Made by a program: the position numbers and the translations under genes. From Dehalococcoidia bacterium (GTDB lineage: Bacteria; Chloroflexota; Dehalococcoidia; GIF9; AB-539-J10), in assembly GCA_007129495.1 (NCBI GenBank), contig SKVJ01000039.1, positions 20,303 to 84,302 of the forward strand: 64,000 nucleotides of DNA. Reading direction: 5' to 3'. Of this stretch, positions 23,630-44,440 are shown in pieces. The notes under the pieces are model-generated. The model was not told the origin of the DNA. It did not search any database and saw only the letters and a list, made by a program, of their open reading frames with translations. Position 1 is the stretch's first letter; every line of letters begins with the position of its first letter.

Positions 23630-24622
23630 TCAAATGTGGCTGATATCCACCAATCGCTCGTAGTCAATCAGGCCGCTCTCAGCCGAGTTTTCTACTTCAA
23701 TCCCTGCTTCTGCTGCTGCTGCGACCGGATTGAGGCCACCGAGCAAGATCATGCCTACCTTGTTCATACCAACTTCTATCTGACATATCGGCTCACTGGT
23801 GTTGCCGAGAAGGTAGACACCATGAATGCCCGCAGCTCGAAGTTCCTCGATGCGCCTTTCGACTACGACACGCGACGGAGCGAGAATTTCGCGGAAATTG
23901 GCGAGGATGCGTCCTGTGCCGGATTCAGCAGCATTTCTGACATCTGTCATTCCGGCGCGTATGTACTGTTCCGAAGGATCAAGGGAAGTGCCATCATACT
24001 TGATAATGGCAACGAACCGCCGTGGCCTCCCGCTCTTGAGTTCCAGTACGCCCCCGAAGCGTGACTCAATGGGGACCGAGGACTTCAGCAGGACACCATT
24101 CACAACCACTCCGCACACGGTTGCCAGACCTACCATCCCTGCCGGCACCACACGCGTGCCTAATTTCTCCCCCTCGTGAGCCACTGACACCAGCCGGCTC
24201 GCACAGAGATTGCGGTCGAAGGCCGGTTGCATCTCTTGTAGCGCGTTGCGAAAGTCATCGGCGCGGAAGAGCGAAGTGTTTACGGGAACAAGTCCTGTCC
24301 TGCGGTTCGGGTCGAACGTGGTCTGGAACGCGAGGAGTTGCAGTTTCTCGATGATGAACCCCACCTGTTCCGGTGCGAGTGCATTGCGCAACTCATCGAG
24401 CCCCTCCCAGGTAATGATTCTGCCATCCCGTCCTTTGGGCTCGGTATAGCCTCGTTCGTCGGTCATCCGCAGGTGATACCGTACTGCTCTCTCGCTCAGA
24501 AAGACACCGTGTCTCTCCAGGTCACGAGAAATCGTGATGGATCCGAGGGGTTCGGCTGATTCCGACAGAACCTTCAGAATGGCGATGGTCTTTCGTTCGG
24601 TGTCTCTATCAAGGGTCTGCAT
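23630..24622 (-). CDS. nrpR: NrpR-type nitrogen repressor (wHTH plus single NRD/DUF128 domain)
   Basis: N-terminal LSERAVRYHL...GRIIT..G..EL; C-terminal ATVC...NGVLLK, YDGTSLDP, LANFRE, GGLNPVAA. Confidence 0.9.
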   Translation of the reverse strand: MQTLDRDTERKTIAILKVLSESAEPLGSITISRDLERHGVFLSERAVRYHLRMTDERGYTEPKGRDGRIITWEGLDELRNALAPEQVGFIIEKLQLLAFQTTFDPNRRTGLVPVNTSLFRADDFRNALQEMQPAFDRNLCASRLVSVAHEGEKLGTRVVPAGMVGLATVCGVVVNGVLLKSSVPIESRFGGVLELKSGRPRRFVAIIKYDGTSLDPSEQYIRAGMTDVRNAAESGTGRILANFREILAPSRVVVERRIEELRAAGIHGVYLLGNTSEPICQIEVGMNKVGMILLGGLNPVAAAAEAGIEVENSAESGLIDYERLVDISHI

Positions 24623-24689
24623 CAGTGAATTCTCGGTGCCGGCTCACCTTTATTCGTGGCCGGGTGCTCTGCAGGGACAGTATACAGTG

Positions 24690-25307
24690 TCAGGCACTGG
24701 AATCCGACGGGTGTTGACCTTGAATCCCCGCAATATGCAGGAAGTACTGGTGTACACGCAGGTCTGGCACGAACTCGGGATGAAAGCTGGTGGCGAAAAT
24801 ACGGGATTGTTGACAGGCCACAATGGTTCCGCTGTGCAGCCGGGAAATGACGCGGACCTTCGGTCCGCATGACTCGATAATCGGAGCTCGAATGAAGACT
24901 CCACGAAAGACGGAACCCGCGAGACCATCTATCATCAAGTCTTCCTCGAAGCTTTGCACCTGTCTGCCAAAGGCATTGCGAGCTACGGAGACGTCGAGAA
25001 GTCCGAGAGGAGTCATACTGTGGCTGGTGACCGTCTTGGCTAGCACGATGATGCCAGCACAGGTGCCGAATGTAGGGAGACCGTTAATGATAGCGTTCAG
25101 CAATGGCTCGCGGAGGGCAAACTCATCGATTAGCTTGAGAAGCGTCGTCGATTCTCCTCCCGGCAGAATGATTCCGTCGATGCCTTCCAGGTGTTCTGGC
25201 AGGCGCACTTCTCGTACGCTCGCCCCAAGCTGTTTCAGAGCCGCGCTGTGCTCCATGAATGACCCTTGCAGGCACAGGACACCAATCGTCGGGCGACCGG
25301 ATATCAT
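24690..25307 (-). CDS. pdxT: PLP synthase glutaminase subunit
   Basis: GVLCLQGSF.EH, LPGGEST, GTCAG, RNAFGRQVQSF, VFIRAP, FHPE; ATGA overlap with purF. Confidence 0.96.
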   Translation of the reverse strand: MISGRPTIGVLCLQGSFMEHSAALKQLGASVREVRLPEHLEGIDGIILPGGESTTLLKLIDEFALREPLLNAIINGLPTFGTCAGIIVLAKTVTSHSMTPLGLLDVSVARNAFGRQVQSFEEDLMIDGLAGSVFRGVFIRAPIIESCGPKVRVISRLHSGTIVACQQSRIFATSFHPEFVPDLRVHQYFLHIAGIQGQHPSDSSA

Positions 25308-26734
25308 GGTGCGGTCTCCAGCGCCAGCTTGCCCAGTCCCATCTGGACAGGCACCGGGTACTGGCCGGTGAAGCAGGCCGTACAAAGGCTGCTACACGGG
25401 CGTTGCAGTGCTTTCTGTAGTCCTTCAAGGCTGATGTAACCGAGAGAATCGGCCTGAACATGCTTCTGTATTTCGGCAACTGAGTAGCGGGCTGCGATAA
25501 GCTCAGATTCGGTCGGAATGTCCACGCCAAGAAAGCAGGGGTGGATCAGCGGCGGGGCACAAATTCTGAGGTGAACCTCTCGTGCACCAGCGGCTCGCAG
25601 AAGAGCGACTACGTGTGGTGTGGTCGTGCCGCGAACGATGCTGTCATCCAGCACGACAAGTCGTTTACCCGCTATCGTGCCGGAAAGTGGATTGAACTTC
25701 AATTGTACGCCGAGGTCTCTCAGGCGCTGGTCGGGAGCAATGAACGTGCGGCCAATATAACGATTCTTGAGCAGCCCTTCACAGTACGGGATGCCGGATG
25801 CATCAGCGAAACCGATAGCGGCGGGAATTGCGGAATCCGGAATGCCAAGTACGAGATCTGCGTCGACCGGGTATTCACGCCAGAGTTGCGCACCCATATC
25901 CTGTCTACTGTCATAGACGAGCCTGTTCTCAAGCGTACTGTCGGGTCGTGCGAGATAGATGTATTCGAAGGCACAGAATGCATGGCGCTGCCCCTCTCCT
26001 ATGTGCAGTCGCGTAACACCATCCGCGCCAAATGCGAGCAGCTCGCCAGGCTCAAGTTCACGTTCGAATCGTGCGCCGATATGGTCGAGGGCACATGATT
26101 CGGAAGCCACAACCGGACTCAAACCGATGTATCCCAGGCACAGAGGGCGAACCCCGTTGGGATCACGCACGGCGATAAGCCTGTCTGTCGTGAGCAGGGT
26201 GAGGGAGTAGGCGCCTATGAGACGACGGGTTGCGGAAGCGACTCGCTCCACCCAATTATGACCGGGTGTCGAAAGGATGAGGTTTGCGATCACTTCGGAA
26301 TCTGTCGTTGCACTGAACTTGAATCCCTTCTCAAGCAGTTCCTGACGAAGCTGGACGGCGTTCACAATGTTGCCGTTATGCGCCAGTGCGATCTTGCCTT
26401 CAGGACCTGATACCACTATCGGCTGAGCATTGACGCTGCTGTTCGTTCCAGTAGTTGAATAGCGGTTGTGACCAATTCCAGAGAAGCCACTCAGACGGGA
26501 GAGCGACTCTTCATCGAATACCTGTGAGACAAGCCCGATTGCTGCATGGCGCTTGAGGTCGCGTCCATTAGAGACCACAATACCGCTGCTCTCCTGGCCG
26601 CGGTGCTGTAGCGCGAATAACGCGAAGAATATCAGGCGGGCCACGTCTTCGGGTGGGGAAAAAGTGCCGAAGACAGCGCACTTGTCATGGATCATGCTTG
26701 ATACAACCTCAGTAGTCCCTGAGAGTGCTGTCAA
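25304..26734 (-). CDS. purF: Amidophosphoribosyltransferase
   Basis: Propeptide then CAVFG (Ntn Cys), LQHRGQE, GHNRYST, VVLDDSIVRGTT, Fe-S Cys; start may be ATG 26695. Confidence 0.97.
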   Translation of the reverse strand: MTALSGTTEVVSSMIHDKCAVFGTFSPPEDVARLIFFALFALQHRGQESSGIVVSNGRDLKRHAAIGLVSQVFDEESLSRLSGFSGIGHNRYSTTGTNSSVNAQPIVVSGPEGKIALAHNGNIVNAVQLRQELLEKGFKFSATTDSEVIANLILSTPGHNWVERVASATRRLIGAYSLTLLTTDRLIAVRDPNGVRPLCLGYIGLSPVVASESCALDHIGARFERELEPGELLAFGADGVTRLHIGEGQRHAFCAFEYIYLARPDSTLENRLVYDSRQDMGAQLWREYPVDADLVLGIPDSAIPAAIGFADASGIPYCEGLLKNRYIGRTFIAPDQRLRDLGVQLKFNPLSGTIAGKRLVVLDDSIVRGTTTPHVVALLRAAGAREVHLRICAPPLIHPCFLGVDIPTESELIAARYSVAEIQKHVQADSLGYISLEGLQKALQRPCSSLCTACFTGQYPVPVQMGLGKLALETAP

Positions 26735-27836
26735 CTCGGTTGCGTCTAGTTGAGTTCTCGTTCATCAAGTCCACGAACTGATGAAAGAGGTATGTGCTGT
26801 CCAGGGGCCCCGGCGTACCTTCAGCATGATACTGGATGGAGATCAGGGGATACTCCTCATGAGTGATACCCTCGACAGTGCCATCGTTCAGGTTCACATG
26901 GCTTATGGCGATGCCTTGAGGAAGGGTTTCACCAGCCACAGCGTAACCATGATTTTGAGTCGTGATATATACGCGTCCTGTGTGGACGTCACGCACTGGA
27001 TGATTCCCGCCATGGTGGCCGAACTTCAGTTTGAAGGTCTGACCGCCCAGCGCGCGTGCGATAACCTGGTGGCCGAGGCAGACACCCATCAGAGGCACAC
27101 GGCCCAGCAACTGGCGCATCACCTCCTCGAGGTCGGTCAAGTGGGCCGGATCTCCAGGTCCGGGTGACAGCAGGACACCATCGGGAGACAACTCGCGTAT
27201 GCGATCAAGGCCGGCAGAGACAGGCACAACCGTAACCCTGCAGCCAGCGGCTGTGAGGTGTCTGATGATACTTTGCTTCACACCGCAGTCAACCAGAACT
27301 ACGTGATACGCCTCGTCGGGCGTAGTGGCAGTGGCCACTCGCTCGCTGTCCGTACTCACTTCATGGGCCAGTGGCATCTGTCCGTATGCCAGCGTAGAGC
27401 GAAGTTCACGCAGGGCGTCTTCCGGCAGGAGATCAGATGTGAGGACACCCATCATGACGCCGGCGGCCCGGAGCTTACGTGTCAGAGCGCGTGTATCCAG
27501 ACCTGCGATACCGGGGATGCCGTGTGTCGACAGATAGCTATCGAGTGTTTGGACGGACTGGAAATGGCTTGGTGTTGCACAGTGCTCGCGCACCACAAGG
27601 CCACGCGCCTGGACATGAGGCGACTCGTCATCGATCGGATTGATTCCGTAGTTGCCGACAAGTGGATATGTAAGCACCAGCAACTGGCCCCTGAACGAAG
27701 GGTCCGTCAGCATCTCCTGGTAGCCTGTCATGCTTGTGTCAAAAACTACCTCGCCGTACGTGGTAGTGTCAGCTCCAAATGACTCCCCCTCGTACGTAGT
27801 ACCATCTTCGAGTATCAGGTAGGCTTTCTTAGTCAT
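26709..27836 (-). CDS. carA: Carbamoyl-phosphate synthase small (glutaminase) subunit
   Basis: GEVVFDTSMTGYQE..TDPS, LSPGPGDP, GVCLGHQ, QNHGYAV, QYHAE. Confidence 0.97.
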   Translation of the reverse strand: MTKKAYLILEDGTTYEGESFGADTTTYGEVVFDTSMTGYQEMLTDPSFRGQLLVLTYPLVGNYGINPIDDESPHVQARGLVVREHCATPSHFQSVQTLDSYLSTHGIPGIAGLDTRALTRKLRAAGVMMGVLTSDLLPEDALRELRSTLAYGQMPLAHEVSTDSERVATATTPDEAYHVVLVDCGVKQSIIRHLTAAGCRVTVVPVSAGLDRIRELSPDGVLLSPGPGDPAHLTDLEEVMRQLLGRVPLMGVCLGHQVIARALGGQTFKLKFGHHGGNHPVRDVHTGRVYITTQNHGYAVAGETLPQGIAISHVNLNDGTVEGITHEEYPLISIQYHAEGTPGPLDSTYLFHQFVDLMNENSTRRNRVDSTLRDY

Positions 27837-27880
27837 ATCGTCCACTCCTGACGGGCGGTACGTATTCAACGGTCACCGGA

Positions 27881-29638
27881 TCAACCATGGAATCTGTTGG
27901 TGATCGGAAGGCGACGGTCGCGACCGAATGCCCGAGTCGTTATTTTGATTCCCGGCGGTGCCTGGCGTCTCTTGTACTCACTGTGATCGACGAGCTGTGC
28001 GGTGCGCTCAACGATGTCCGCGTCATGGCCAAGTGCGACTATCTGTGCCACGCTTCTATCGTCTTCCACGTACAGCTTGAGGATAGGATCCAGTACTTCA
28101 TAGGGTGGAAGACTATCGCTGTCTTTTTGATTCGGTCGCAGCTCTGCCGACGGTGGCCGGCACATGACCCTAGGTGGGATGACACAATCCGGGCCCAGTG
28201 AGTTGCGATGGTGCGACAATTCGTATACAAGAGACTTGGGAACGTCCTTGAGTACGGCGAAACCTCCAGCCATGTCGCCATACAGTGTAGTGTACCCGGT
28301 GGCCATCTCACTCTTGTTACCAGTAGTTAAGACAAGCCAGCGGAACTTGTTTGAGAGAGACATCAGTATTGTTCCGCGTATACGCGCCTGAAGATTTTCC
28401 TCTGTCGAGTCTTCTTCCAGTCCTTCGAAAACCGGGCCGAGCATTTCTAGGAACGCAGTGTATGCAGGCTCCACGGGAATTGTGATTAGACGGATGTTGA
28501 GGTTATCAGCGACTGCTTGAGCGTTGTCGCTACTCTCGGAAGCTGTGAATCTGGATGGCAGGCAGACTGCGACAACATTCTCCGGTCCGAGCGCATCGCA
28601 TGCGATGCAGGCCACAAGAGACGAATCGATACCACCAGACAGCCCTATGACGACCTGGTCGAATCCGTTCTTGCGCACGTAATCTGCAGTCCCGAGCACC
28701 AGGGCGCGATATACCTCGTCGCACTTGTCGACAGGCTGAAACGTGCAGGGTTGCAGCGCAGGCTTCGCGTGGTCACCCACAGTGGCGGCGATGTCTATCT
28801 CGGTGTTATCCGTCGTGCGGCCGCGCACCAACGTCTCAGTCTTGCGCCATCTCGGGTCGTGAAGGCGGGCACGAAACACGGATTCGATCTGCACGTCGGC
28901 AACGACCAGATCTTCCTTGAACGCTTCTCCCGCAGCCAGCACTGCTCCCTGTTCATCGACGATCATACTCTCGCCGTCAAATACCAATTCGTCCTGTCCG
29001 CCAACCAGATTACACATAGCGAACACGCAGACGTTATCTCTCGCCCTGGTTGCCAGCATCTGACGACGGCTGTCGCATTTTCCGCGATGATAGGGAGATG
29101 CGCTCAGATTCACGATGATCTCCGCGCCATTCGCAGCCTGTACGCTGGCGGGTCCACCCTCGTACCAGATGTCTTCGCAGATAGTGACGCCGATGCCGAC
29201 TCCGCCAAGACGGAATACCGGACTGGCACGGCCTGCGCGGAAGTATCGGTTCTCATCAAAGACGCCGTAGTTGGGGAGGAAGACCTTATGGTAGATACCA
29301 CGGACGCCGCCATCGTAGAGAATCGCTGCCGCGTTGTATACATCGGAATCGCTGTCCACGAATCCTACTATCACGAGAGAATGGCGCGTGTGTTCAGCGA
29401 TAAGGCGAAGGGAACACTGATTCTCGTTGATGAAGCGAGGGCGTAACAACAGGTCTTCAGGCGGATACCCGCTTATGGCCAACTCGGGGAACACAATTAC
29501 ATCAGCACCTCTCGCCACCGCCTCATCAACAGATGAAATGATGCGCTCGGTGTTGCCAGCCAGGTCACCGACGGTACTGTTGATCTGCGCGAGTGCGATA
29601 CGAACAGACAGCGCTTGCTGTCGGTCGGGGTAGCTCAT
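27881..29638 (-). CDS. nadE: Glutamine-dependent NAD+ synthetase
   Basis: Nitrilase domain (FPEL, YHK.FLPNY, ICEDIW) plus GLSGGIDS, ENLQARIRG, TGNKSE; start uncertain (29638/29647/29686). Confidence 0.96.
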   Translation of the reverse strand: MSYPDRQQALSVRIALAQINSTVGDLAGNTERIISSVDEAVARGADVIVFPELAISGYPPEDLLLRPRFINENQCSLRLIAEHTRHSLVIVGFVDSDSDVYNAAAILYDGGVRGIYHKVFLPNYGVFDENRYFRAGRASPVFRLGGVGIGVTICEDIWYEGGPASVQAANGAEIIVNLSASPYHRGKCDSRRQMLATRARDNVCVFAMCNLVGGQDELVFDGESMIVDEQGAVLAAGEAFKEDLVVADVQIESVFRARLHDPRWRKTETLVRGRTTDNTEIDIAATVGDHAKPALQPCTFQPVDKCDEVYRALVLGTADYVRKNGFDQVVIGLSGGIDSSLVACIACDALGPENVVAVCLPSRFTASESSDNAQAVADNLNIRLITIPVEPAYTAFLEMLGPVFEGLEEDSTEENLQARIRGTILMSLSNKFRWLVLTTGNKSEMATGYTTLYGDMAGGFAVLKDVPKSLVYELSHHRNSLGPDCVIPPRVMCRPPSAELRPNQKDSDSLPPYEVLDPILKLYVEDDRSVAQIVALGHDADIVERTAQLVDHSEYKRRQAPPGIKITTRAFGRDRRLPITNRFHG

Positions 29639-30137
29639 TCTCTGCATCAAGCTATTCTCGCTGTTAGCTCGTGGGTGTATCCTCACCGTATATTGTAGCA
29701 GGTTGTCGTCATTACGTGTGCTATGGCGTCAGCTGGCCATCGGTGATGCCGGAAAACCACGGATCTCGACGTCCGCTTGGGTACGTATTGCTGCGAATTG
29801 TGGTCATTGCTATAGTGTGTGCTGGTTACTACAATTGTTCAACGACCCTTGGGTTTCTAATAAGAATGACACGGGTGGTTCCAGTTAAAGAACTTCGTTG
29901 TCACTCGATCTCGATAGTTGCCAGGATCCGGGCAACAGTCTTCGAAACGAGGTGTGAGTTATCCGCGCGCTGCGCTGGTCTGTTGAAGAATTGAGATCGG
30001 TTACGATACGAACTTAGAAATACTACTATGTTGATTCAGTCTTCATCTGTCGTGGTGTACTCCCCGCACCTAGTTTGAAGTGGGTGGGGATATGCCGAAG
30101 CGGCTATGTGCAGCACCAGTGAAAAGGAGCAGAGTAA

Positions 30138-31385: not shown

Positions 31386-31464
31386 GGCGCGGAGTCGCTT
31401 ATTCACATATGTGCACGAGCCGGAAATGAGAGCTCGCATCGGTGCGGGCTTGATCTTGATGATG

Positions 31465-31490: not shown

Positions 31491-31513
31491 TCCGGATTAC
31501 GTGTGGTTGGTGT

Positions 31514-32857: not shown

Positions 32858-32927
32858 TTCTCCTCCTTTATCTGCTGCGCCGCTGTGACGGCTCAACGTT
32901 CGATAAGGAGAATTATCAGTGCAGAAT

Positions 32928-32965
32928 GTTTCGGGTGTGTTTCGCTGGTGTTACCGGGCCGTGAA
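32928..32965 (-). promoter_or_regulatory. GlnR-box array upstream of glnA
   Basis: Minus strand TTCAC-N6-GTAAC-N6-GAAAC-N6-GAAAC, four half-sites at exact 11-bp phase, followed by -10-like GATAAT (32912-32917). Confidence 0.8.
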
Positions 32966-32985
32966 TTGTGCGACGGGCTCAGAAA

Positions 32986-34431: not shown

Positions 34432-34724
34432 TCACTCCTCCGGAGACAAGGCGTGGAAAGCCTGCCACGGTGCACTCATAGTCTGTGTGAAAGCTATTCA
34501 CCAGCGCCAACTGAATGTAGTATCGTCTCAAACCGTCGACCACAGATGATCTGCAGGCAACCTCATGCATTGAGCGGTTCCCAGCATCAGCGCTGACACG
34601 GGTCTTAGGTCAAGAAACAATAATAACACACGTGCCACAACCTGTCGGCTGAGCCCTGATGGTGCGTAGAGGAATCGATTACAATGCTCCGCCAGCGCGG
34701 TTGATTCATCGGCAGTTGCCGATC

Positions 34725-35396: not shown

Positions 35397-35408
35397 TTGC
35401 GTCCTGCG

Positions 35409-36176: not shown

Positions 36177-36179
36177 ATT

Positions 36180-37682
36180 TCACCTGCCAGCCATTCTGAC
36201 CCCGAGGATTTCAAGCTCTGTGTCGCTAAGGCCAACTCCCCTGAGGTGGAGCCGATTGCCCCGAAGGCTCTCGATTGCATTTACTCCCATTCCGCCAAGC
36301 ATATCCATTATTTCAAGGCTCCATCCCCTGACGAGATTGATCACTCTTTGCGCACCAATCTCCGGGTTAATGCGTTTAGTAAGAACCGGGTCGCTCGTGC
36401 ATATGCCCCAGTTGCACTTGCCTGTGTAGCACTGCTGGCACACGTGGCAGCCAAGGGCGATCAAGGCTGCGGTGCCGATATATACGGCATCTGCCCCCAA
36501 CGCGATAGCTTTTGCCACGTCGCCACTGCACCGAAGACCACCGGAGGCGACGACCGAAGCCTGGTTGCGGATACCCTCTTCACGCAACCTGGTATCAACC
36601 GATGCCAGCGCCAGCTCTAAGGGGATTCCGACGCTATCCCGAATCGCCTTGGGTGCAGCGCCGGTTGCGCCGCGCAATCCATCAACTACGATGATGTCCG
36701 CTCCCGCACGTACCATTCCGCTTGCAATGGCTGCCACATTATGCACTGCTGCTATCTTCACCGAGACCGGCTTCTCATAGTTGGTCACTTCCTTGATCGC
36801 ATAGATGAGTTGACGGAGATCCTCTATTGAATAGATGTCGTGATGCGGAGCGGGTGATAGTGCATCGGTACCGATGGGGATCATTCTGGTCTTGGAAACC
36901 TCGTCAGTCACCTTCTCTCCGGGTAGATGGCCGCCGATTCCAGGCTTGGCTCCCTGGCCAATCTTGATCTCGATGATGCGGGCAGAGCGAAGATACTCCG
37001 GGTTCACGCCATAGCGGCCTGATGCAACTTGAACCGTGGTGTTCGGTCCATACCGGGCGAGAGACGGGTGCAGTCCGCCTTCACCAGTGTTCCATAGAGT
37101 ACCCAATTCGGTGGCGGCCCTCGCCAGGGAGAGTTGAACGTTCAGGCTGACCGCGCCGTACGACATCGCGGCGAACATGATAGGTGTCTCCAGCTTCACC
37201 TGTGGGGCCAAGGTTGTCGTTAGGATTCCGGCTTCATCGAAGGTGAGCCGGTCGGGTTTCCTTCCGAGGTACGTACTGAGTTCCATCGGCTCCCGCAGTG
37301 GGTCAATTGAAGGATTAGTTACCTGGCTCGCGTTAAGCAGCAGATGATCCCAGTAGATAGTATGGTTCTTATCGTCGCCCATTCCCGTAAGGAGCATGCC
37401 TCCGCTCTCTGCCTGCTTGAGAATATCTTCAATAACCTCGGGCCGCCAGTTAGCATTCGTGCGGTATTCGAGGGGATTGCGGCGAATTGTGAGTGCGTTG
37501 GTAGGACAGAAGACCACACACCTGTGGCATCCCACACAGTTGTCTTCATGAGCTTTTACAGTGTGGTCATCCTCGTCGAAATAGTGGACCTTGAAGCTGC
37601 ACTGGGTCACGCAGACGTTGCACTGGATGCATCTTGTCGGATCGCGTTCCACAATGAATCTGGTAGGCAAGAAACTCTTCAT
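36180..37682 (-). CDS. Glutamate synthase FMN-binding subunit with N-terminal 2x[4Fe-4S] domain
   Basis: CIQCNVC..C, CVGCHRC..CP, AMSYGA, NTGEGG, IKIGQGAKPGIGGHLPG.KV, SPAPHHDIYSIEDL, C-terminal 3Fe-4S Cys. Confidence 0.95.
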   Translation of the reverse strand: MKSFLPTRFIVERDPTRCIQCNVCVTQCSFKVHYFDEDDHTVKAHEDNCVGCHRCVVFCPTNALTIRRNPLEYRTNANWRPEVIEDILKQAESGGMLLTGMGDDKNHTIYWDHLLLNASQVTNPSIDPLREPMELSTYLGRKPDRLTFDEAGILTTTLAPQVKLETPIMFAAMSYGAVSLNVQLSLARAATELGTLWNTGEGGLHPSLARYGPNTTVQVASGRYGVNPEYLRSARIIEIKIGQGAKPGIGGHLPGEKVTDEVSKTRMIPIGTDALSPAPHHDIYSIEDLRQLIYAIKEVTNYEKPVSVKIAAVHNVAAIASGMVRAGADIIVVDGLRGATGAAPKAIRDSVGIPLELALASVDTRLREEGIRNQASVVASGGLRCSGDVAKAIALGADAVYIGTAALIALGCHVCQQCYTGKCNWGICTSDPVLTKRINPEIGAQRVINLVRGWSLEIMDMLGGMGVNAIESLRGNRLHLRGVGLSDTELEILGVRMAGR

Positions 37683-37692
37683 GATGTTATTC

Positions 37693-38460
37693 CTAGTTTC
37701 GGATTGCGATGCCTTTCGCTGCAAGGTACTGCTTTGTCGCAAGAATGTCGGTTTCATTGTAGTGGAATATGCTTGCCGCCAGTACGGCATCAGCTTCGCC
37801 TTCCTCAAGCGCACGATAGAGATCCTGAGGTGATCCTGCTCCCCCACTTGCAATTACGGGGATCGACACCTGCGTCGAGATCGCTCGAGTGAGTTCAATG
37901 TCGTAACCCGTGCGGTGGCCGTCGGCATCCATGCTGGTGAGAAGTATTTCTCCCGCTCCCAGTGCGGCAGCCTGCGCAGCCCACTGCACGGCATCGATGT
38001 CTACAGCCACGCTTCCACCGTACGCGTGTACCTGCCATCGGAGAGGATTGCTGCCGGGAATACGTTTCGCATCTATTGCGACGACGACACACTGGCTGCC
38101 GAAGCGGTCGGCGGCCTGGCTGATTAGATCCGGGTGGCGTACCGCCGAGGTATTGACCGAAATTTTGTCCGCGCCGCTCAACAGCAGGCGCCGCATGTCC
38201 TCAACAGTGCGAAGTCCACCGCCCACTGTAAGTGGAATGAAGACGACCTCAGCTATGCGCTCCACGAGTGTAGCCATAGTTTCCCTGTGCTCTTTGCTTG
38301 CAGTGATGTCGAGGAAGACCAGTTCGTCAGCCCCTCCGCGGTAGTAGCGGCGGGCGAGTTCGACCGGATCCCCGGAGTCGCGAAGGGACTGGAAGCTCTT
38401 TCCCTTCACGACGCGACCATCCTTCACGTCGAGACAGGGAATGATGCGCTTAGTCAGCAC
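37693..38460 (-). CDS. hisF: Imidazole glycerol phosphate synthase cyclase subunit
   Basis: [46 protein letters not shown]. Confidence 0.96.
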
Positions 38461-39598
38461 GAGCAGGTACCTCAATTGCAGGCCGTTGCTCGTCGGATGA
38501 CGGCATGTTCCCCAAGCGTGAGATGACAGGCTGGCCGCCGATCGGTATCCAGGTGTCGTCCAGTTCGGGGCTTACAAGTCTGATAGCCGATTCTTCCGAG
38601 GAGAGAAAGACCCTGGTACCCTGCGTAGCCACTACCAGCGGGCGGAGGCGGATCCTGTCGGTGAGTCCTACCATTTCACCTTCACGTGCGATGATGACAG
38701 TGAATGGCCCGTTCAGCAACAAACCGCCGTATGTGATGCGCAACGCCTCCATCACTTGAGCCTCAACTGCCTCCATCCGCGGAGCATCAGACCAGAAGGG
38801 TGCGGCGAGAACCTTCGCGGCTATCCGCATCGGCAGCTGATGTCGTCGAACCAGCAGATCGACTGCATAAGCAACAACTTCGGTGTCCGTTTGCAGCGAA
38901 CATATGTAGCCATACTGTTCGAGTGTGCGCTTGTTAATGCCATACGAAGATATTTCGCCATTGTGAACGACGGTCCAATCCAGAAGGCTGAATGGGTGAG
39001 CGCCGCCCCACCATCCGGGAGTGTTGGTGGGAAATCTGCCATGGGCTGTCCATATATAGCCGCTATAGTGTTCGAGTCTGAAGAACCGGGCGATATCGTA
39101 TGGATGGCCAACGCCCTTGAAGACACCCATGTTCTTCCCGGCCGAAAACACGAAGCTATCGGAGATATGTGAATTGATATGCATGGTCTTGTCGGCAACG
39201 TACTGAGCTTCATCGCTGACACCGAGTTTCTCGGGCCGGACGGACGCGAAGTACCTTTGCATCAAGGGTGGATTGGCGATGAGGTCCGGATCAACCTCCA
39301 TCGCCTCGGATTGCGCGATGACGAAGGACTCCGCAAGGTAGGCTTCAGTGTCACGTTGCCCTTGCCTGCTTGTGTACATAACGTGAAACGCAAACTCCTC
39401 CGGACGCTCCGGGTATAAGCCGTATGCGGCGAATCCACCACCGAGACCGTTATCCCTGTCCCTCATCAGGTCGATTGCCTGAATGGCTACATCCGCCGGA
39501 ATGGAGGCGCCGGATGTATCCATCACTCCAAAAATCGAGCACCCGTCGGATACCTTGTCGTCCCTGTATCTGTTATTGAGCTGGGTTAGATTCTTCAT
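38450..39598 (-). CDS. Class II (Ntn) glutamine amidotransferase, glutamate synthase domain-1 subunit
   Basis: DG|[50 protein letters not shown]. Confidence 0.92.
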
Positions 39599-39637
39599 TT
39601 CGTCACCGCTTCCTGCTGATAATGCGCCGACATCTCT

Positions 39638-40909
39638 TCATGTCACCGCAGTCAGTTCGTCATGCCATAGATGCGCTGGAATGGACAGTAGTCCGAAGTC
39701 TTCGCGGACGAGGATCTCCTGCCAGCCTTCAACCCTGACCTTCTCCTTCATGAGTAGATGCAGTAGGCCGCACTTGCTCGTGTCCCCGATGGCAACCATA
39801 CCAATCACTATGCCACCCTTCAGGATTACTTGTCTATAATAGCCTGGTCCCTCTGATACTACCTTCTCATGGAGTGCGGGATTGTATTCAACCACACCCG
39901 CCGATCCCACAGACAAGCCGAAATAGGGAATAGAATTAAGTGTGGTGCTCCCATCATATAAACGCTGTTGGCCGGTCATACTAGCACCCGCTACTGCACC
40001 TCCTGCCACTGCATTAGGCCAAGTGGCAAGCACGGACTCCTGCTCCCGTACGAAGTCGTATGTCCTGCAGGCATCACCACATGCGAAGATGTCCTGCGCC
40101 GTAGTTCTCATGGAAGTATCCACTAGGATGCCCTGGTCGATGAAGGCGATGCTTTCAGCCAGTTCAGTACGAGGTCTCACTCCTACTGCAAGTATTACGA
40201 GTTCACACTGGATCCTTGTACCATCGTCGAGAGTCACGCTGGAGACTGACAGTGATTCCGGATGATCGCCATTTATGGATGTCACCTGTTTCCCGGTTGC
40301 GACATGCACTCCGGCTGCAATCGCGGCGCCCTGCACAAGTGAGGAGCCTGTGGCATCAAGCATCGTGCTGAGTAGGCGAGGCTGCATCTCAATGACAGTT
40401 ACGTCCACCCCGTACTTGCGCAATGCGTCGGCTGCACTGAGTCCGATGAGACCACCTCCCACGACTACTGCACGCCGGGATGCCGGTAGATGTCGCGCAA
40501 TCTGCCGGGCATCATCATATGTGGTGAAGGTGAACACTCCCCGCCTGTTGGTTCCGGTGATCTGTGGCACAATCGGCGAGCTTCCTGTTGCAATCAATAG
40601 GCGACGCCAAGATGGGTTAGTGCCGTCCCTCAATGAAACCGTTCTCGCAGCGGTGTCAATATGTAACGCAGGGGTGTCCAATCTCAGGTCTATGGAATGG
40701 TTCTTGTAGAATTCCCGTGGAACAAGATACATCGCATCGATGGTCTTGCCCTCGGATAGGTGTTTGGCTATGAGCGGTCGTGAGTACGCAGCATAGGGTT
40801 CATCCGAAACCATCAATATACGGTTCGACGTATCCGCCTTGCGAATTTCACGGGCGGCAGCGACTGCTCCTGCTGAGTTTCCTATTATCACGTATTCGTA
40901 ATCGGCCAT
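39638..40909 (-). CDS. NAD(P)/FAD-dependent oxidoreductase
   Basis: IIGNSAG, YSRP, ATGS, VVGGGLIG, FACGD. Confidence 0.92.
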   Translation of the reverse strand: MADYEYVIIGNSAGAVAAAREIRKADTSNRILMVSDEPYAAYSRPLIAKHLSEGKTIDAMYLVPREFYKNHSIDLRLDTPALHIDTAARTVSLRDGTNPSWRRLLIATGSSPIVPQITGTNRRGVFTFTTYDDARQIARHLPASRRAVVVGGGLIGLSAADALRKYGVDVTVIEMQPRLLSTMLDATGSSLVQGAAIAAGVHVATGKQVTSINGDHPESLSVSSVTLDDGTRIQCELVILAVGVRPRTELAESIAFIDQGILVDTSMRTTAQDIFACGDACRTYDFVREQESVLATWPNAVAGGAVAGASMTGQQRLYDGSTTLNSIPYFGLSVGSAGVVEYNPALHEKVVSEGPGYYRQVILKGGIVIGMVAIGDTSKCGLLHLLMKEKVRVEGWQEILVREDFGLLSIPAHLWHDELTAVT

Positions 40910-40933
40910 GTAGATGTTCTCCCCCGGTATATA

Positions 40934-41545
40934 CTATGAAGCGGCCAAGTGGAGGAAGTTCTTGTATAGGCGAAGGCCATCAGCACCACTCTTCTCAGGA
41001 TGAAACTGCGTGGCAACGGTAAGTCCGTGCTTCACTACACTACAAAAAGGCACGCCGTACTCCGTGGTTGCATTGACAAGCGATGGGTCCACTGGCTCGA
41101 CCACGTAGCTGTGCACGAAGTAGAAACTGGCGTCGTTTGGAATGCCGTCGAATAGCGCCGGAACACCTTCGTAGTGGACCTGGTTCCAGCCCATGTGAGG
41201 CACTTTTTGAGAGGCAGGCAAGCGAACAACCCGGCCCCGGAATATGCCGAGACAGTCTTGGCCGATGCCTTCCTCCGAGTGCTCGAACAGAACCTGCATC
41301 CCCATGCAGATCCCAAGGAAAGGGCGCTCAGCCGCAATCCACTGCGTCACCATCTGAGACGAACCACGAAGTTGCATGTTGGCCATTGTATCGGTGGCTG
41401 CGCCTACCCCAGGCAGTATCATCGCGTGAGCTTTTCGCGCGTCCAAAGCCGATTCGACCACAAGCGGGTCGCTGCCTAGAAACCGCAACGCCGAAATAAC
41501 ACTTCTGAGGTTTCCTGCTCCGTAGTCCACGACTGCTACATGCAT
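40934..41545 (-). CDS. hisH: Imidazole glycerol phosphate synthase glutaminase subunit
   Basis: DYGAGNL.SV, LPGVG, GICMGMQ, VPHMGWN, YFVHSY, QFHPEKS. Confidence 0.96.
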   Translation of the reverse strand: MHVAVVDYGAGNLRSVISALRFLGSDPLVVESALDARKAHAMILPGVGAATDTMANMQLRGSSQMVTQWIAAERPFLGICMGMQVLFEHSEEGIGQDCLGIFRGRVVRLPASQKVPHMGWNQVHYEGVPALFDGIPNDASFYFVHSYVVEPVDPSLVNATTEYGVPFCSVVKHGLTVATQFHPEKSGADGLRLYKNFLHLAAS

Positions 41546-41567
41546 GATGCTGATACCGCTCCTCTTG

Positions 41568-41939
41568 TCAGTTCTGGATCGCTACTTTCACGGTGTTCAT
41601 TCGGGCTACTACCTGCTGGTTGCTTCCATGTTTCACCACCACGTTCATCTGCTCCAAGACCTCATAGTCGCCATTTGCCACTGAAGCCGAGTCCCACAAT
41701 ACCGGGAAGCTGGCGTCTCTTCTGTCGGATGTGCCGACCTGCAACCACGTGTTCTGTCCAACGCTGCGGATATACCAGTTATTCATAATCCGCACGACTG
41801 GGCCGGACAACCCCATAGAGTCCAAATCCCGGCGGAGAAGTCCTTCGTCAACATTCTCCTTCAGGAGAATGCGACCGGACAGGATCCTGGATGCTTCTGA
41901 TGTCGCGACGAAATGGGGGCCCCAATTATCCTGTTGCAT
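41568..41939 (-). CDS. Hypothetical protein (123 aa) inside the glutamate synthase operon
   Basis: Strong AAGGAGG SD; fills the gap between co-oriented genes; beta-rich C-terminus with WD....NG.YEV. Confidence 0.8.
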   Translation of the reverse strand: MQQDNWGPHFVATSEASRILSGRILLKENVDEGLLRRDLDSMGLSGPVVRIMNNWYIRSVGQNTWLQVGTSDRRDASFPVLWDSASVANGDYEVLEQMNVVVKHGSNQQVVARMNTVKVAIQN

Positions 41940-42029
41940 TACTCTTCCTCCTTGGTCGCAAGAATCTCCGGCAGAATGAGTTCATCGTGCGAATCGGGTG
42001 AACATCACGCGATTCCACGTCGCTCCTTC

Positions 42030-43622
42030 CTAGCTGTCAAGTACCGCTAGTGCCTCCTCTCTATATGCATCCATTACGTAGGGGATGCCTGTGACCAGAG
42101 CGCATTCCTGAGTCAGTGACATAAGGTCCCTCCGGCTGATTGCGGACACACTGAAGTTGCGGCTGCCAGCCATAATCTGCTGCAGGCCGACCTTAAGTTT
42201 CTGCGCATAGCTGTAAATGCCTATGGCACCGAGTGGTATTCTCGCCATCTCTTCGTGGCCGACTATCTGCTTCACATCTTCGTAAGAGACGAAGATCTCC
42301 TCCGGTGTAGAGCCGAACTGCCCGACTGTGTTTGGCAGTTTGCCATCGGCTATCCACTTGGCAATATTTTTGCCGACCATACCAGGAATCATGAGGGCGC
42401 GGCCCATGCAGACAGCCTTGACAAATGGCGCACCCAGCGCTAGGGCTTTGAAGACACCATCCTCGCTGCTGAACCCGCCGGCAAATGCGATATCGGGAAC
42501 ACGTTCGCCCCTGATCTCAAGTCGCTCGCAGAATTCGTAGGCGGCTGAGTGCAGATAGATGCTGGGGATTCCCCATTCCTCCATCATGCGCCAGGGGCTC
42601 ATCCCGGTTCCACCGGGAGCGCCATCTATAGTGATCAGGTCAAGCCGGGCTTTCGAGCCCCATTTGAGGGACATTGCAAGTTCGCGCAGACTGTAGGCTC
42701 CGGTCTTGAGAGTGATGCGCTTGAAGCCGATGTCACGCAACTCCTGTACCGCCTGAAGGAAACCCTCCTCGTCGATGAATCCCAGACGGCTATGACGCTC
42801 GACTTCCTTGAGCGCGCCGCTGGTGAATGCCGATTTGCTCGCCGTAAGCGAGGGGTCAGGTGTCACGATGTACCCCCGCTGCTGCAATTGAAGGGCTCGC
42901 TCCAGCGAGCCGACTTTAATTTCCCCGCCGATGCACTTGGCACCCTGCCCCCATTTGAGTTCGATTGTCTCGAGACCATGCCTGTCATGTACGTATTCTG
43001 CGGCACCGAGGCGTGTATCTTCCACGTTCAGTTGCACGAGGATCTCGCCATAACCATCATGATACCGCCGATAGGTTTCGATGCGACGGTCCATGTCGGG
43101 CGCCCGTCGTACTTTGCCACTGCTATCGAGTTCCAGTTCGGGATCAATGCCGCAGACGTTTTCACCGCAGACGAGTGTGATGCCGCTCAGCGCGGCACCT
43201 ACCGCGAAATGGTCCCAGTTCTTGCGTGCAATCTCTGTTGATCCGAGTGCGCCTGTGAACACAGGCACGCGCAAAGGTACCTTGGAATCCCATCCATAGC
43301 CGGTTTCCGTGTTCACCACGGGAAATGTCGCGGTATCGGGATTGCCTGCTACGCCTTCGGGTAATCCCTTGGCTCCCAGCGCATAACCCTGAATGTTAAG
43401 GTGGGAGTAGTCGACCGGATAGTCTTTGTCTGCTCCGGCAGTAACGTCGCCAAAAGGTCCCGGATAGATCAGTTCGCGGCCACGGAAAGTAGCCTTGAAG
43501 ACCTCGCAGTTACCGGTGCATCCGTCGATGCAACGTGAGCACAGGCCACTCATGGGCACGACATCGCGTGAACGGTTGGTGGTACGAGTGGCGTCATTGC
43601 CATTGGGGCGTTTCAAATTCAT
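42030..43622 (-). CDS. Second FMN-binding glutamate-synthase-family protein with N-terminal Cys cluster
   Basis: CSRCIDGCTGNC, GALGS, ELKWGQGAKCIGGE, IDGAPGGTGMSP, AGG....VFKALALGA, MGRA. Confidence 0.88.
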   Translation of the reverse strand: MNLKRPNGNDATRTTNRSRDVVPMSGLCSRCIDGCTGNCEVFKATFRGRELIYPGPFGDVTAGADKDYPVDYSHLNIQGYALGAKGLPEGVAGNPDTATFPVVNTETGYGWDSKVPLRVPVFTGALGSTEIARKNWDHFAVGAALSGITLVCGENVCGIDPELELDSSGKVRRAPDMDRRIETYRRYHDGYGEILVQLNVEDTRLGAAEYVHDRHGLETIELKWGQGAKCIGGEIKVGSLERALQLQQRGYIVTPDPSLTASKSAFTSGALKEVERHSRLGFIDEEGFLQAVQELRDIGFKRITLKTGAYSLRELAMSLKWGSKARLDLITIDGAPGGTGMSPWRMMEEWGIPSIYLHSAAYEFCERLEIRGERVPDIAFAGGFSSEDGVFKALALGAPFVKAVCMGRALMIPGMVGKNIAKWIADGKLPNTVGQFGSTPEEIFVSYEDVKQIVGHEEMARIPLGAIGIYSYAQKLKVGLQQIMAGSRNFSVSAISRRDLMSLTQECALVTGIPYVMDAYREEALAVLDS

Positions 43623-43692
43623 GGCCTATCCTCCTCAGATGTTCAAGAGAGTTTCTATCTGCTGGCTCACATGTGCTCTAGTTGCAGTGCAG

Positions 43693-44151
43693 TCAGATCA
43701 CAAGGCAATGTGATGTTTCTTCCACGACCATTAGTGCACCATTTGGACATACGCTGATGCACCTCGACACATCGCGGTCGAAACATCCATCGCACTTGAC
43801 AACCTTGCCTGTTTGTTCATCTTTGCGTATTGCACCGAACGGACAAACCAGCATGCATGTGCCACAACCGATGCACTTCTCCCTGTCGACGAGTACAAAC
43901 CCCGTGTTCTCGTCCCTGCTCATAGCTCCGGTGATGCAGGCATCGATACAGGAAGCGTTTGGACAGTGGCGACATCGTATCGATATACAATGCAGGCCGT
44001 TGTGCTCGACCCTGATTCCTCCAGCAGGAGGAGCAAGTCGTTTCTTCAGCGCTTTCGCGGGATCATCATTCCCAGCGTGATGTGCTTCGCAGAAGACACG
44101 GCACAATCCACAGCCAATACACAGGTCTTCTTGTATGACGACACGTCTCAT
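43693..44151 (-). CDS. 4Fe-4S dicluster electron-transfer protein (HydN/CooF/DmsB-like)
   Basis: CIGCGLC..C, CRHC...C..AC, CIGCGTC..VCPFG, KCDGC....C..VCP; GGAGG SD. Confidence 0.93.
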   Translation of the reverse strand: MRRVVIQEDLCIGCGLCRVFCEAHHAGNDDPAKALKKRLAPPAGGIRVEHNGLHCISIRCRHCPNASCIDACITGAMSRDENTGFVLVDREKCIGCGTCMLVCPFGAIRKDEQTGKVVKCDGCFDRDVSRCISVCPNGALMVVEETSHCLVI

Positions 44152-44193
44152 CTTGTACTTCCTCCAACGCAACCGAAAGAGTTGTGCGGTGCC

Positions 44194-44245
44194 TACGGTA
44201 ACCGGTTGCCGTATAACGCTATCATGTGAACTGACCGATTGTCAA
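44194..44245 (-). promoter_or_regulatory. Promoter of the glutamate synthase operon with a palindromic operator at the predicted start site
   Basis: Minus strand TTGACA-18 bp-TAGCGT (TGn extended -10), followed after 2 bp by the 20-bp near-perfect palindrome TACGGCAACCGGTTACCGTA. Confidence 0.65.
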
Positions 44246-44413: not shown

Positions 44414-44440
44414 GCTGGAGGTTGGTGTCCGGCCAGAATC

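What the first reader, a model, noticed from the sequence alone, without database searches (positions are those of the whole stretch)
23630..44245. Possible NrpR-to-GlnR regulatory cascade
Seen: the glnR-like gene is the last co-oriented gene of the operon whose promoter carries the candidate operator (12-bp gap after the GXGXG gene). glnA carries GlnR boxes, and weaker 11-bp-phased pairs occur at 44286-44301 (minus, TAAAC-N6-CAAAC) and 44340-44355 (plus, GTTAC-N6-GCAAC). Inference: high 2-oxoglutarate releases NrpR, which induces GOGAT and GlnR, and GlnR then activates glnA. This would join an archaeal-type sensor to an actinobacterial-type activator and supply the input signal for a kinase-less regulator.
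Basis: inference. Interest (0 to 1): 0.7.

Follow-up and report, generated by a model that had tools for sequence, protein, structure and literature searches.

The report
NrpR-operator operon feeding a GlnR-type activator
A Dehalococcoidia bacterium appears to wire an archaeal-type nitrogen repressor (NrpR) upstream of an actinobacterial-type activator (GlnR) that lacks a phosphorylation site, a plausible two-step nitrogen switch that is well supported by comparative genomics but not yet by experiment.

Summary
The core observation holds. The window is from a 2.1-Mb Dehalococcoidia-like genome. A minus-strand operon (fer4 to split GOGAT, with hisH/hisF) ends in an OmpR-type gene 12 bp after the GXGXG gene. 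Its best solved relatives are actinobacterial GlnR, and its receiver domain lacks the phospho-acceptor Asp.

The operon promoter carries an 18-bp palindrome (44195-44212) just after the -10. It is the only strong copy in the genome. It is conserved at the same place in 17 of 24 relatives. In another genus it sits directly upstream of nrpR itself.

glnA carries four GlnR-type sites 11 bp apart (32928-32965). A matrix trained only on relatives ranks this site and the amtB promoter as the two clear outliers in the whole genome.

The two "weaker pairs" near 44300 are not supported: one is expected by chance, one is marginal, and such repeats are not enriched at relatives' operon heads.

The cascade (NrpR represses GOGAT+glnR; GlnR activates glnA/amtB) is the best reading, at about 0.5. 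Binding, the 2-oxoglutarate response and co-transcription of glnR remain inferred. I found no published description of it.

The parts
23630..24622 (-). nrpR: winged-helix HTH plus one NrpR regulatory module, 330 aa; the only copy in this genome
   Evidence: Pfam PF08461 at 1.4e-17 and PF01995 at 6e-72. PDB 3nek (MJ0159 NrpR-like domain) at 1.2e-18. One PF01995 match in G000.
24690..29686 (-). nadE-carA-purF-pdxT: co-oriented string of glutamine-using enzymes that ends in nrpR
   Evidence: Pfam. No palindrome or four-site repeat found upstream.
31514..32857 (-). glnA (glutamine synthetase); likely start is the ATG at 32857 behind AAGGAGGA
   Evidence: Pfam PF00120 at 2.6e-131. Sequence. A metatranscriptome contig lies on 31500-32894.
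32912..32917 (-). Predicted -10 (GATAAT) of the glnA promoter, 10 nt after the fourth GlnR-type site
   Evidence: Sequence. Relatives show the same spacing to TAnACT.
32928..32965 (-). Four GlnR-type sites, TTCAC / GTAAC / GAAAC / GAAAC, each separated by 6 nt
   Evidence: Core matrix trained on 37 relatives' sites scores it 22.9. It is one of two genome-wide outliers; the other (23.4) is upstream of amtB at G000:C48:9215-9253, and the next hit scores 13.6.
32986..34431 (-). gatB, between glnR and glnA; preceded by a 293-bp spacer
   Evidence: Pfam. Sequence.
34725..35396 (-). glnR-like gene: OmpR-type winged helix with a degenerate receiver lacking the acceptor Asp
   Evidence: PF00486 at 8.7e-28. 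Best PDB matches are 8hig_A (2.8e-38, residues 24-220) and 8hih_O (2e-34, residues 11-218); the next family members score 1e-23. 8HIH is linked to actinobacterial GlnR by the structure paper; 8hig_A is titled only as an OmpR-family regulator. Acceptor column across 17 orthologues: E 11, A 3, P/T/V 1 each, D 0.
35397..35408 (-). 12-nt junction between the GXGXG stop and the glnR GTG, holding an AGGA ribosome-binding site
   Evidence: Sequence.
35409..44151 (-). Operon body: fer4, GltB-like 530 aa, 123-aa unknown, hisH, flavin oxidoreductase, GATase-2 (GltB N-domain), hisF, GltB FMN domain, GXGXG domain (archaeal-type split GOGAT)
   Evidence: Pfam and NCBIfam. Same order in relatives. RNA contigs lie on 35485-35905, 36169-37473, 37457-38088, 38176-39813 and 39801-44199.
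44195..44212 (.). Palindromic operator ACGGTAA-CCGG-TTGCCGT; predicted NrpR site overlapping the transcription start
   Evidence: In another genus the same motif lies upstream of nrpR itself.
44216..44245 (-). Predicted operon promoter: TTGACA (44240-44245), 18-nt spacer with TG, TAGCGT (44216-44221)
   Evidence: Sequence. Relatives show the same TTGACA-17-TAnnnT-palindrome layout.
44286..44301 (-). Weak pair TAAAC-N6-CAAAC: chance-level
   Evidence: Expected 0.55 per spacer.
44340..44355 (+). Weak pair GTTAC-N6-GCAAC: marginal; GlnR-type repeats not enriched at operon heads
   Evidence: Expected 0.06 per spacer. 3 of 19 operon heads at p<0.05, the window not among them.
44385..44413 (+). Divergent pyrG promoter, a perfect TTGACA-17-TATAAT

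Best explanation
This is a two-tier nitrogen circuit. Tier 1: the single NrpR of this genome binds as a dimer to the palindrome at 44195-44212. That site overlaps the start of the fer4...split-GOGAT...glnR operon, so NrpR blocks transcription when nitrogen is sufficient. When 2-oxoglutarate rises, NrpR lets go, and both the GOGAT enzymes and the GlnR-type protein are made. Tier 2: the GlnR-type protein cannot be phosphorylated because its receiver has no acceptor Asp (most orthologues carry Glu there), so its activity follows its amount. It occupies four direct repeats from about -60 to -23 at the glnA and amtB promoters and recruits RNA polymerase, as actinobacterial GlnR does.

Shown here: the genes, the motifs, their positions, their conservation and their genome-wide uniqueness. 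Inferred: who binds what, the signs of regulation, the 2-oxoglutarate signal, and that glnR is transcribed from the operon promoter.
For: PALINDROME AS OPERATOR.
- It is the only strong copy in 2.1 Mb.
- 17 of 24 relatives' operon heads have a site scoring >=19.9 within about 100 bp of the first gene. 13 of these were training sites; 5 are new (L011, L026, L030, L036, L038).
- The layout TTGACA-17-(-10)-3..6 nt-palindrome is constant.
- It also heads the short hisH-hisF-glnR operons of L024 and L025.

PALINDROME LINKED TO NrpR.
- It has the same 14-bp GG...CC span as the methanogen operator GGAAN6TTCC (passage in PMC2723118).
- In genus g62 it sits upstream of nrpR in 3 of 3 genomes. In G133 it lies about 40 bp before the start of a monocistronic nrpR. 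G079 was also checked as a locus; G055 by coordinates only.

GlnR TIER.
- Best solved relatives over both domains are 8hig_A and 8hih_O. 8HIH is linked to actinobacterial GlnR by the structure paper; 8hig_A carries only a generic title.
- The four sites separated by 6 nt match the gTnAc/GaAAC a1-b1-a2-b2 element at amtB described in PMC10235972 (passages and section 5).
- 37 of the 79 loci with a GlnR-like match carry the motif just after the glnR-like gene.
- 53 of 54 hits >=20 in 1.15 Mb lie there, none at operon heads; 37 of the 54 were training sites.
- In this genome, which was not used for training, the two outliers are amtB and glnA.

LINK BETWEEN THE TIERS.
- 12-nt junction.
- glnR-like directly follows GXGXG or hisF in 42 of 80 loci, two of them with nrpR in between.
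- All 37 genomes with a GlnR-like score >=265 bits have NrpR, against 99 of 301 overall. In 14 of them an nrpR copy sits immediately upstream of the glnR-like gene.
- The whole layout recurs in a complete genome of a distant family (G133).

RNA contigs of one coded metatranscriptome (X5) lie on the operon up to 44199 and on glnA up to 32894. This is compatible with both predicted promoters, but contigs cannot prove starts.
Against: - No binding, effector or expression experiment exists for any bacterial NrpR or for this GlnR-type protein.
- The exact methanogen consensus is absent from the window.
- 7 of 24 relatives' operon heads lack a strong palindrome (L001, L010, L014, L018, L020, L022 at 17.7, L034).
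- 16 of 42 relatives have more than 45 nt before the glnR-like gene by my rough start calls, enough room for a promoter of its own.
- The five NrpR-negative genomes tested lack the split operon: four carry a fused GltB-length frame and the fifth (G020) a single 458-aa match. So there was no 'operon without NrpR' control.
- The co-occurrence threshold of 265 bits was set after seeing the scores, related genomes are not independent, and at least 9 NrpR-positive genomes lack a strong GlnR-like hit.
- nrpR-glnR gene pairs could point to a relationship other than repressor and target.
- A receiver without Asp may still be controlled after translation.
Confidence: 0.5

Rival explanations
1. The two regulators act in parallel, not in series. 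NrpR controls the GOGAT operon. The GlnR-type protein is always present at a sufficient level, and its activity is set after translation (by PII/GlnK, a metabolite or a modification). Its place at the end of the operon gives only mild co-expression.
For: Actinobacterial GlnR is thought to be modified after translation, and its input is unresolved (PMC10235972 passages). 16 of 42 relatives leave more than 45 nt before the glnR-like gene. PII genes sit in the GlnR-controlled amtB operon of relatives, judged from a 112-aa ORF after the transporter in L011 that was not tested by Pfam.
Against: The acceptor Asp, the Lys and the acidic pair are missing, and 11 of 17 orthologues carry Glu at the acceptor column. 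The 12-nt junction in the window. The palindrome also heads the short hisH-hisF-glnR operons of L024 and L025.
Confidence: 0.25
2. The palindrome is not an NrpR site. It is bound by another regulator, or it acts as an RNA hairpin in the 5' leader.
For: The exact GGAA-N6-TTCC is absent. No control genome with the operon but without NrpR could be found. The sequence could fold as a hairpin, and the RNA contig reaches into it.
Against: The arms are conserved in sequence rather than by compensatory change. No Rfam family matches in 22000-47000. The motif lies directly upstream of a monocistronic nrpR in another genus, in 3 of 3 genomes. NrpR and the GlnR-type gene are the only regulator genes I identified in the cluster, and OmpR-type proteins bind direct repeats.
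Confidence: 0.13
3. NrpR and the GlnR-type protein work as a physical pair: the NrpR sensor domain docks on the degenerate receiver and passes the 2-oxoglutarate signal by contact rather than through transcription.
For: An nrpR copy lies immediately upstream of the glnR-like gene in 14 genomes and in loci L001 and L002.
Against: In the window genome the only nrpR lies 10 kb from glnR, in another gene string. No positive evidence of contact exists.
Confidence: 0.08

Closest known systems
NrpR of methanogenic archaea (Methanococcus maripaludis NrpR; Methanosarcina mazei NrpRI)
   Same: Same two Pfam domains. The regulatory domain matches the solved MJ0159 domain. Palindromic site with a 14-bp GG...CC span at promoters of nitrogen-assimilation genes. 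JGI names some close homologues NrpRI.
   Different: The host is a bacterium. The operator is GGYAA-N4-TTRCC with ACG/CGT extensions, not GGAA-N6-TTCC. It sits behind a sigma-70-type -10 box, not a TATA box. In this genome the only strong site is at the GOGAT-glnR operon, not at glnA or amtB, and no nif link was seen. There is one regulatory module, whereas M. maripaludis NrpR has two (the latter recalled).
GlnR of actinobacteria (OmpR/PhoB-family orphan regulator; structures 8HIH, 8HIG)
   Same: Closest solved relatives over both domains. Same cis-element of four 5-nt sites separated by 6 nt, with GTAAC/GAAAC cores. Same flagship targets, amtB and glnA. The sites reach to about -23, as in the amtB scaffold of the activation complex. 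No cognate kinase gene in the cluster.
   Different: The phylum is Chloroflexota, class Dehalococcoidia by the record titles of relatives. Pfam GlnR_1st is below its cut-off, and only 3 of 17 orthologues match it at E <=0.01. The acceptor Asp is replaced (E/A/P/T/V), whereas actinobacterial GlnR keeps it (recalled). The gene is embedded in a GOGAT operon behind a repressor site.
NtrC-Nac cascade of enterobacteria (recalled, not checked here)
   Same: Same logic: a signal-sensing regulator sets the amount of a second regulator that has no effector of its own, and the second regulator then controls sigma-70 promoters of nitrogen genes.
   Different: Unrelated protein families (sigma-54 activator and LysR type). 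Tier 1 there is an activator, not a repressor.
Bacillus GlnR/TnrA (MerR type)
   Same: Only the name and the target glnA.
   Different: Different fold and mechanism (feedback-inhibited glutamine synthetase as co-repressor; recalled). Not related to the protein here.

Membership tests
NrpR (archaeal-type nitrogen repressor) | N-terminal winged-helix HTH followed by an NrpR regulatory domain | tested here: met
   PF08461 at 1.4e-17 and PF01995 at 6e-72. 3nek at 1.2e-18.
NrpR (archaeal-type nitrogen repressor) | Palindromic operator GGAA-N6-TTCC at promoters of nitrogen genes | tested here: inconclusive
   The exact consensus occurs 0 times in the window. A related palindrome with the same 14-bp span overlaps the start of the GOGAT-glnR operon and is conserved. 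The same motif lies upstream of nrpR in 3 of 3 g62 genomes.
NrpR (archaeal-type nitrogen repressor) | DNA binding relieved by 2-oxoglutarate | not testable with these tools
   Needs purified protein.
Actinobacterial GlnR (OmpR/PhoB orphan regulator) | C-terminal OmpR-type winged-helix DNA-binding domain | tested here: met
   PF00486 at 8.7e-28. Found in 17 of 17 orthologues.
Actinobacterial GlnR (OmpR/PhoB orphan regulator) | GlnR-type N-terminal domain (Pfam PF21695) | tested here: inconclusive
   21.1 bits against a cut-off of 27. 3 of 17 orthologues match at E <=0.01 and 9 of 17 match Response_reg weakly. The best PDB matches, 8hig_A and 8hih_O, include this domain.
Actinobacterial GlnR (OmpR/PhoB orphan regulator) | Cis-element of a/b sites (gTnAc / GaAAC), typically four, separated by 6 nt, at amtB and glnA | tested here: met
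   Window glnA site, and the amtB site on contig C48, are the two genome-wide outliers. 37 relatives carry the motif. The element is defined in PMC10235972.
Actinobacterial GlnR (OmpR/PhoB orphan regulator) | Orphan: works without a cognate kinase or Asp phosphorylation | tested here: met
   No kinase gene in the 21 genes scanned. The acceptor column has D in 0 of 17 orthologues, Lys before the conserved Pro in 2 of 17, and no DD pair. Absence of a kinase elsewhere in the genome was not tested.
Actinobacterial GlnR (OmpR/PhoB orphan regulator) | Orthology to GlnR shown by a family tree | not tested
   No tree with named actinobacterial GlnR sequences was built. The profile of the 17 orthologues does not separate them cleanly from other OmpR-type regulators (242 of 301 genomes hit at 1e-45).

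The most novel reading that the evidence does not exclude
In Dehalococcoidia the long-sought input of a GlnR-type regulator is transcriptional. A bacterial NrpR senses 2-oxoglutarate and sets the amount of a permanently 'on' GlnR (Glu or another residue in place of the acceptor Asp). In many relatives that GlnR also drives the amtB-glnK-glnA-nadE-nrpR string, closing a negative feedback loop on its own repressor. This would be the first defined regulon and operator of a bacterial NrpR, and the first GlnR-box regulon outside the Actinobacteria.
Probability: 0.4. Interest if true: 0.75.

Novelty: new variant of a known kind. Interest (0 to 1): 0.62.

Why it matters
NrpR has been studied only in methanogens, and OmpR-type GlnR only in actinobacteria. 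How GlnR receives its nitrogen signal is still open there (PMC10235972 passages).

Here both occur in one bacterial class, which includes organohalide-respiring genera, with clear conserved DNA motifs for each. This gives testable operators and a simple hypothesis for the signal path. It also gives a handle on nitrogen control in organisms that are hard to manipulate genetically. It shows how regulators typical of different lineages can be combined into one circuit.

My searches of the held library for NrpR or GlnR together with Dehalococcoides/Dehalococcoidia/Chloroflexi returned no paper describing this. For one search I read the single hit's passage; the others I judged from titles and abstract openings. 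Subscription journals and regulon databases could not be searched.

Tried and rejected
- Exact methanogen operator GGAA-N6-TTCC: 0 hits in the window.
- Full 40-column matrix for the direct repeats: over-fitted to AT-rich relatives; it found only an out-of-register glnA hit at 12.7. Replaced by a core-position matrix.
- Co-occurrence using a profile of the 17 GlnR-like orthologues: not specific (242 of 301 genomes at 1e-45). Only the top-scoring range could be used.
- Negative control (split GOGAT operon in NrpR-free genomes): none of the five genomes tried has the split operon. Four carry a fused GltB-length frame and G020 a single 458-aa match.
- Complex prediction of NrpR with the GlnR-type protein: no verdict (score 0.00). 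It says nothing either way.
- Metatranscriptome contigs (run X5, contigs only, one study): no listed RNA contig bridges the GXGXG/glnR junction, and the bins over glnR have depth 0.64 and 0. Contigs cannot show absence, so co-transcription remains open.
- GlnR-type repeats upstream of the operator as possible autoregulation: not general. 3 of 19 heads at p<0.05 (L024, L070, G133); the window's best pair on that strand has p=0.06.
- Rfam scan of 22000-47000: only a tRNA.
- Promoter and terminator scans: counts at shuffle level, no convincing promoter just before glnR.
- The Dehalococcoides nitrogen-limitation transcriptome paper (Lee et al. 2012) is not held, so published expression data could not be consulted.

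Full report
WHAT IS IN THE WINDOW. The window is G000:C2:20303-84302 of a 2.1-Mb, 56% G+C, 75-contig genome. The nearest loci in public genomes are titled Dehalococcoidia or Chloroflexota MAGs.

The finding's coordinates cover a long run of nitrogen genes. On the minus strand, from 44151 downwards, the order is:
- a 4Fe-4S protein, a 530-aa GltB-like protein and a 123-aa unknown;
- hisH, a flavin oxidoreductase, the GltB amidotransferase domain, hisF, the GltB FMN domain and the GXGXG domain (an archaeal-type split glutamate synthase);
- an OmpR-type regulator at 34725-35396.
After a 293-bp spacer come gatB and glnA. gdh lies on the plus strand. Then nadE, carA, purF, pdxT and nrpR (23630-24622) are again on the minus strand. 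pyrG diverges from the operon head.

CHECK OF THE OBSERVATION. The GXGXG stop and the regulator's GTG are 12 nt apart, with an AGGA in between.

The regulator's best solved relatives are 8hig_A (2.8e-38) and 8hih_O (2e-34), aligned over both domains. The next OmpR-family entries score about 1e-23, and most align over the DNA-binding half only. A paper-library search links 8HIH to the structure paper on actinobacterial GlnR. The code 8HIG does not occur in that paper's main text, and 8hig_A is titled only as an OmpR-family regulator.

In an alignment of 17 orthologues the phospho-acceptor column holds Glu 11, Ala 3 and Pro/Thr/Val 1 each, with no Asp. The window protein has Ala there, followed by Asp. 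The conserved Lys is present in 2 of 17, and there is no acidic pair. So "kinase-less" is fair.

Upstream of glnA lie TTCAC, GTAAC, GAAAC and GAAAC, each separated by 6 nt (32928-32965). GATAAT follows 10 nt later.

At the operon head the minus strand reads TTGACA, an 18-nt spacer with TG, TAGCGT, three bases, and then the palindrome ACGGCAACCGGTTACCGT (44195-44212 in plus-strand coordinates).

The two "weaker pairs" have the stated letters but are not above chance. They are expected 0.55 and 0.06 times per spacer, against about 1e-4 for the glnA pairs.

THE DIRECT REPEATS ARE A CONSERVED GlnR-TYPE ELEMENT. In relatives the spacer right after the glnR-like gene lies upstream of the next gene. 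In L011 that gene is a 411-aa ORF followed by a 112-aa ORF and glnA; I did not Pfam-test these two. The spacer carries GTAAC-N6-TTAAC-N6-GTAAT-N6-GAAAC, then about 10 nt, then TAnACT.

I found this in 37 of the 79 loci that had a GlnR-like match. A matrix of the core positions gave 54 hits >=20 in the 1.15 Mb of 80 loci, all on the gene strand. 53 lie after the glnR-like gene and before amtB/glnA, and none lies at an operon head. 37 of the 54 were training sites.

The same matrix was run over the window's own genome, which was not used for training. A speed filter required A at one core position. There are two outliers: 23.4 at C48:9215-9253, about 50 bp before an ammonium-transporter gene (Pfam 2.4e-125), and 22.9 at glnA. 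The next hit scores 13.6.

The element matches the published GlnR cis-element: a and b sites gTnAc/GaAAC, four sites separated by six bases, first worked out at amtB. The activation-complex scaffold spans -64 to +13 (PMC10235972, passages and section 5). The base-contacting residues named there (R186, V190, R193, R194) are all present in the window protein's recognition helix. From memory the same helix occurs in PhoB, so this does not discriminate.

THE PALINDROME IS A CONSERVED OPERATOR. ACGGYAA-N4-TTRCCGT has one perfect copy in the genome, the window's. In the relatives' loci, 25 hits with at most 2 mismatches were found in 1.15 Mb. About half lie 20-160 bp before the first gene of the operon, fer4 or hisH.

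A symmetrised matrix from 13 relatives' sites scores the window site 28.0 and the next genomic hit 16.0. Of 24 loci with an operon head and at least 250 bp upstream, 17 have a site >=19.9 just before the first gene. 13 were training sites; L011, L026, L030, L036 and L038 are new. The misses are L001, L010, L014, L018, L020, L022 (17.7) and L034.

The palindrome always starts 3-6 nt after the -10, which is a repressor position. The arms are conserved as sequence, not by compensating changes, and no Rfam family matches.

WHY NrpR IS THE LIKELY BINDER.
(a) NrpR operators in Methanococcus are GGAAN6TTCC (PMC2723118 passage). The core here, GGYAA-N4-TTRCC, has the same 14-bp span and the same outer GG/CC.
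(b) NrpR and the GlnR-type gene are the only regulator genes I identified in the cluster, and OmpR-type proteins bind head-to-tail repeats.
(c) Independent context: in three complete 1.4-1.5-Mb genomes of genus g62, a palindrome with one mismatch lies just upstream of nrpR. In G133 it is about 40 bp before the ATG of a monocistronic nrpR whose downstream neighbour is convergent. G079 was checked as a locus, G055 only by coordinates.
(d) G133 also has the whole circuit: a palindrome (19.2) before fer4, the same operon ending in the glnR-like gene, and four-site repeats after glnR (19.4) and before glnA (29.6).

THE nrpR-glnR ASSOCIATION. PF01995 is found in 99 of 301 sampled genomes of the class. 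The GlnR-like profile is not specific, but all 37 genomes with a hit >=265 bits are NrpR-positive. In 14 of them (G289, G250, G298, G200, G169, G162, G078, G285, G057, G266, G013, G182, G197, G253) an nrpR copy ends 35-170 bp before the glnR-like gene on the same strand. Loci L001 and L002 show the same.

Caveats: I chose the threshold after seeing the scores, and related genomes are not independent. Conversely, at least 9 NrpR-positive genomes lack a strong GlnR-like hit.

In several relatives (L004, L010, L011, L036, L037, L070) nrpR closes the co-oriented string glnA-nadE-nrpR; in L011 two untested ORFs sit between the glnR-like gene and glnA. GlnR could therefore feed back on its repressor. 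In the window this link is broken by gdh.

RNA. One coded metatranscriptome (X5), from the same sample as a DNA run (X1), holds 85% of the sampled words of 34500-44450. Its contigs lie on 39801-44199 (depth 23.9), 38176-39813 (16.6), 36169-37473 (9.1), 35485-35905 (7.7) and glnA 31500-32894 (112.6). pyrG bins are 0.6-1, and the DNA run is flat near 11.5.

The operon and glnA are therefore probably expressed in situ. The upper ends of the two contigs fall inside the palindrome and 18 nt after the predicted glnA -10. Contigs cannot prove starts, levels or absence, so I treat this only as compatible.

HOW IT MOST LIKELY WORKS. Nitrogen excess: NrpR sits on the start site of the fer4-GOGAT-glnR operon. 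Nitrogen limitation: 2-oxoglutarate rises and NrpR leaves (inferred from methanogens). GOGAT and the GlnR-type protein are made. GlnR fills the four sites at -60 to -23 of amtB and glnA and recruits polymerase (inferred from the actinobacterial complex).

Because the receiver cannot be phosphorylated, GlnR's amount is the simplest control variable. The logic resembles the NtrC-Nac cascade (recalled). I put the whole chain at about 0.5. The GlnR-box tier alone is about 0.85. The palindrome being the NrpR site is about 0.8. Co-transcription of glnR is about 0.7.

NOVELTY. Both protein families are known; their combination, the lineage and both motifs appear undescribed. My searches for NrpR or GlnR with Dehalococcoides/Dehalococcoidia/Chloroflexi in the held library returned nothing relevant. 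For one search I read the single hit's passage; the others I judged from titles and abstract openings. Regulon databases, subscription journals and the 2012 Dehalococcoides nitrogen-limitation transcriptome (not held) could not be checked.

Noticed in passing
window 23630-48897: Glutamine-using enzymes are concentrated to an unusual degree in about 25 kb: pdxT, purF, carA, nadE, gatB, hisH/hisF, split GOGAT, pyrG and gatA, together with glnA and gdh. It looks like a 'glutamine economy' island.
   Followed up: partly
G133:C1:116700-116717, also G055:C1:211413 and G079:C1:110053 (loci L087, L093, L089): A second conserved copy of the palindrome (one mismatch) lies just upstream of a TTGACA...TAGAAT promoter. 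In L087 the downstream gene encodes a carboxylase (HMGL-like plus PYC_OADA domains). This may link NrpR to the supply of carbon skeletons.
   Followed up: partly
window 34708-34723: Palindrome ATCGGCA-AC-TGCCGAT begins 2 nt after the glnR stop codon. It has no T-run and contains a GGCAAC half-site like the operator. It could be a terminator stem or a further protein site.
   Followed up: no
window 29917-29936: Inverted repeat GTTGCC-N8-GGCAAC (operator half-sites in everted order) in the 450-bp nadE/gdh spacer.
   Followed up: no
window 41568-43622: Two operon genes have no clear family: a 123-aa ORF with no Pfam or NCBIfam hit, and a 530-aa protein with only a partial Glu_synthase match (1.5e-14). 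Both recur in some relatives.
   Followed up: no
L014:14031-14266; L022:13086: In L014 glnA carries both the palindrome (20.2) and a four-site repeat (29.2). In L022 a palindrome (24.2) precedes a second, divergent GOGAT cluster. The wiring therefore varies between lineages.
   Followed up: partly
L099 (G133) 17610-17648; L024 upstream of hisH: A few relatives have GlnR-type repeats 60-100 bp upstream of the operator (0 of 300 shuffles reach them), hinting at positive autoregulation in those lineages only.
   Followed up: partly
window 46119-46192: A tRNA gene lies between pyrG and the class-I tRNA-synthetase gene.
   Followed up: no
G000:C48 (L081) 3789-4940: A bacterial eRF1-like (baeRF family) gene lies a few kb from amtB.
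   Followed up: no
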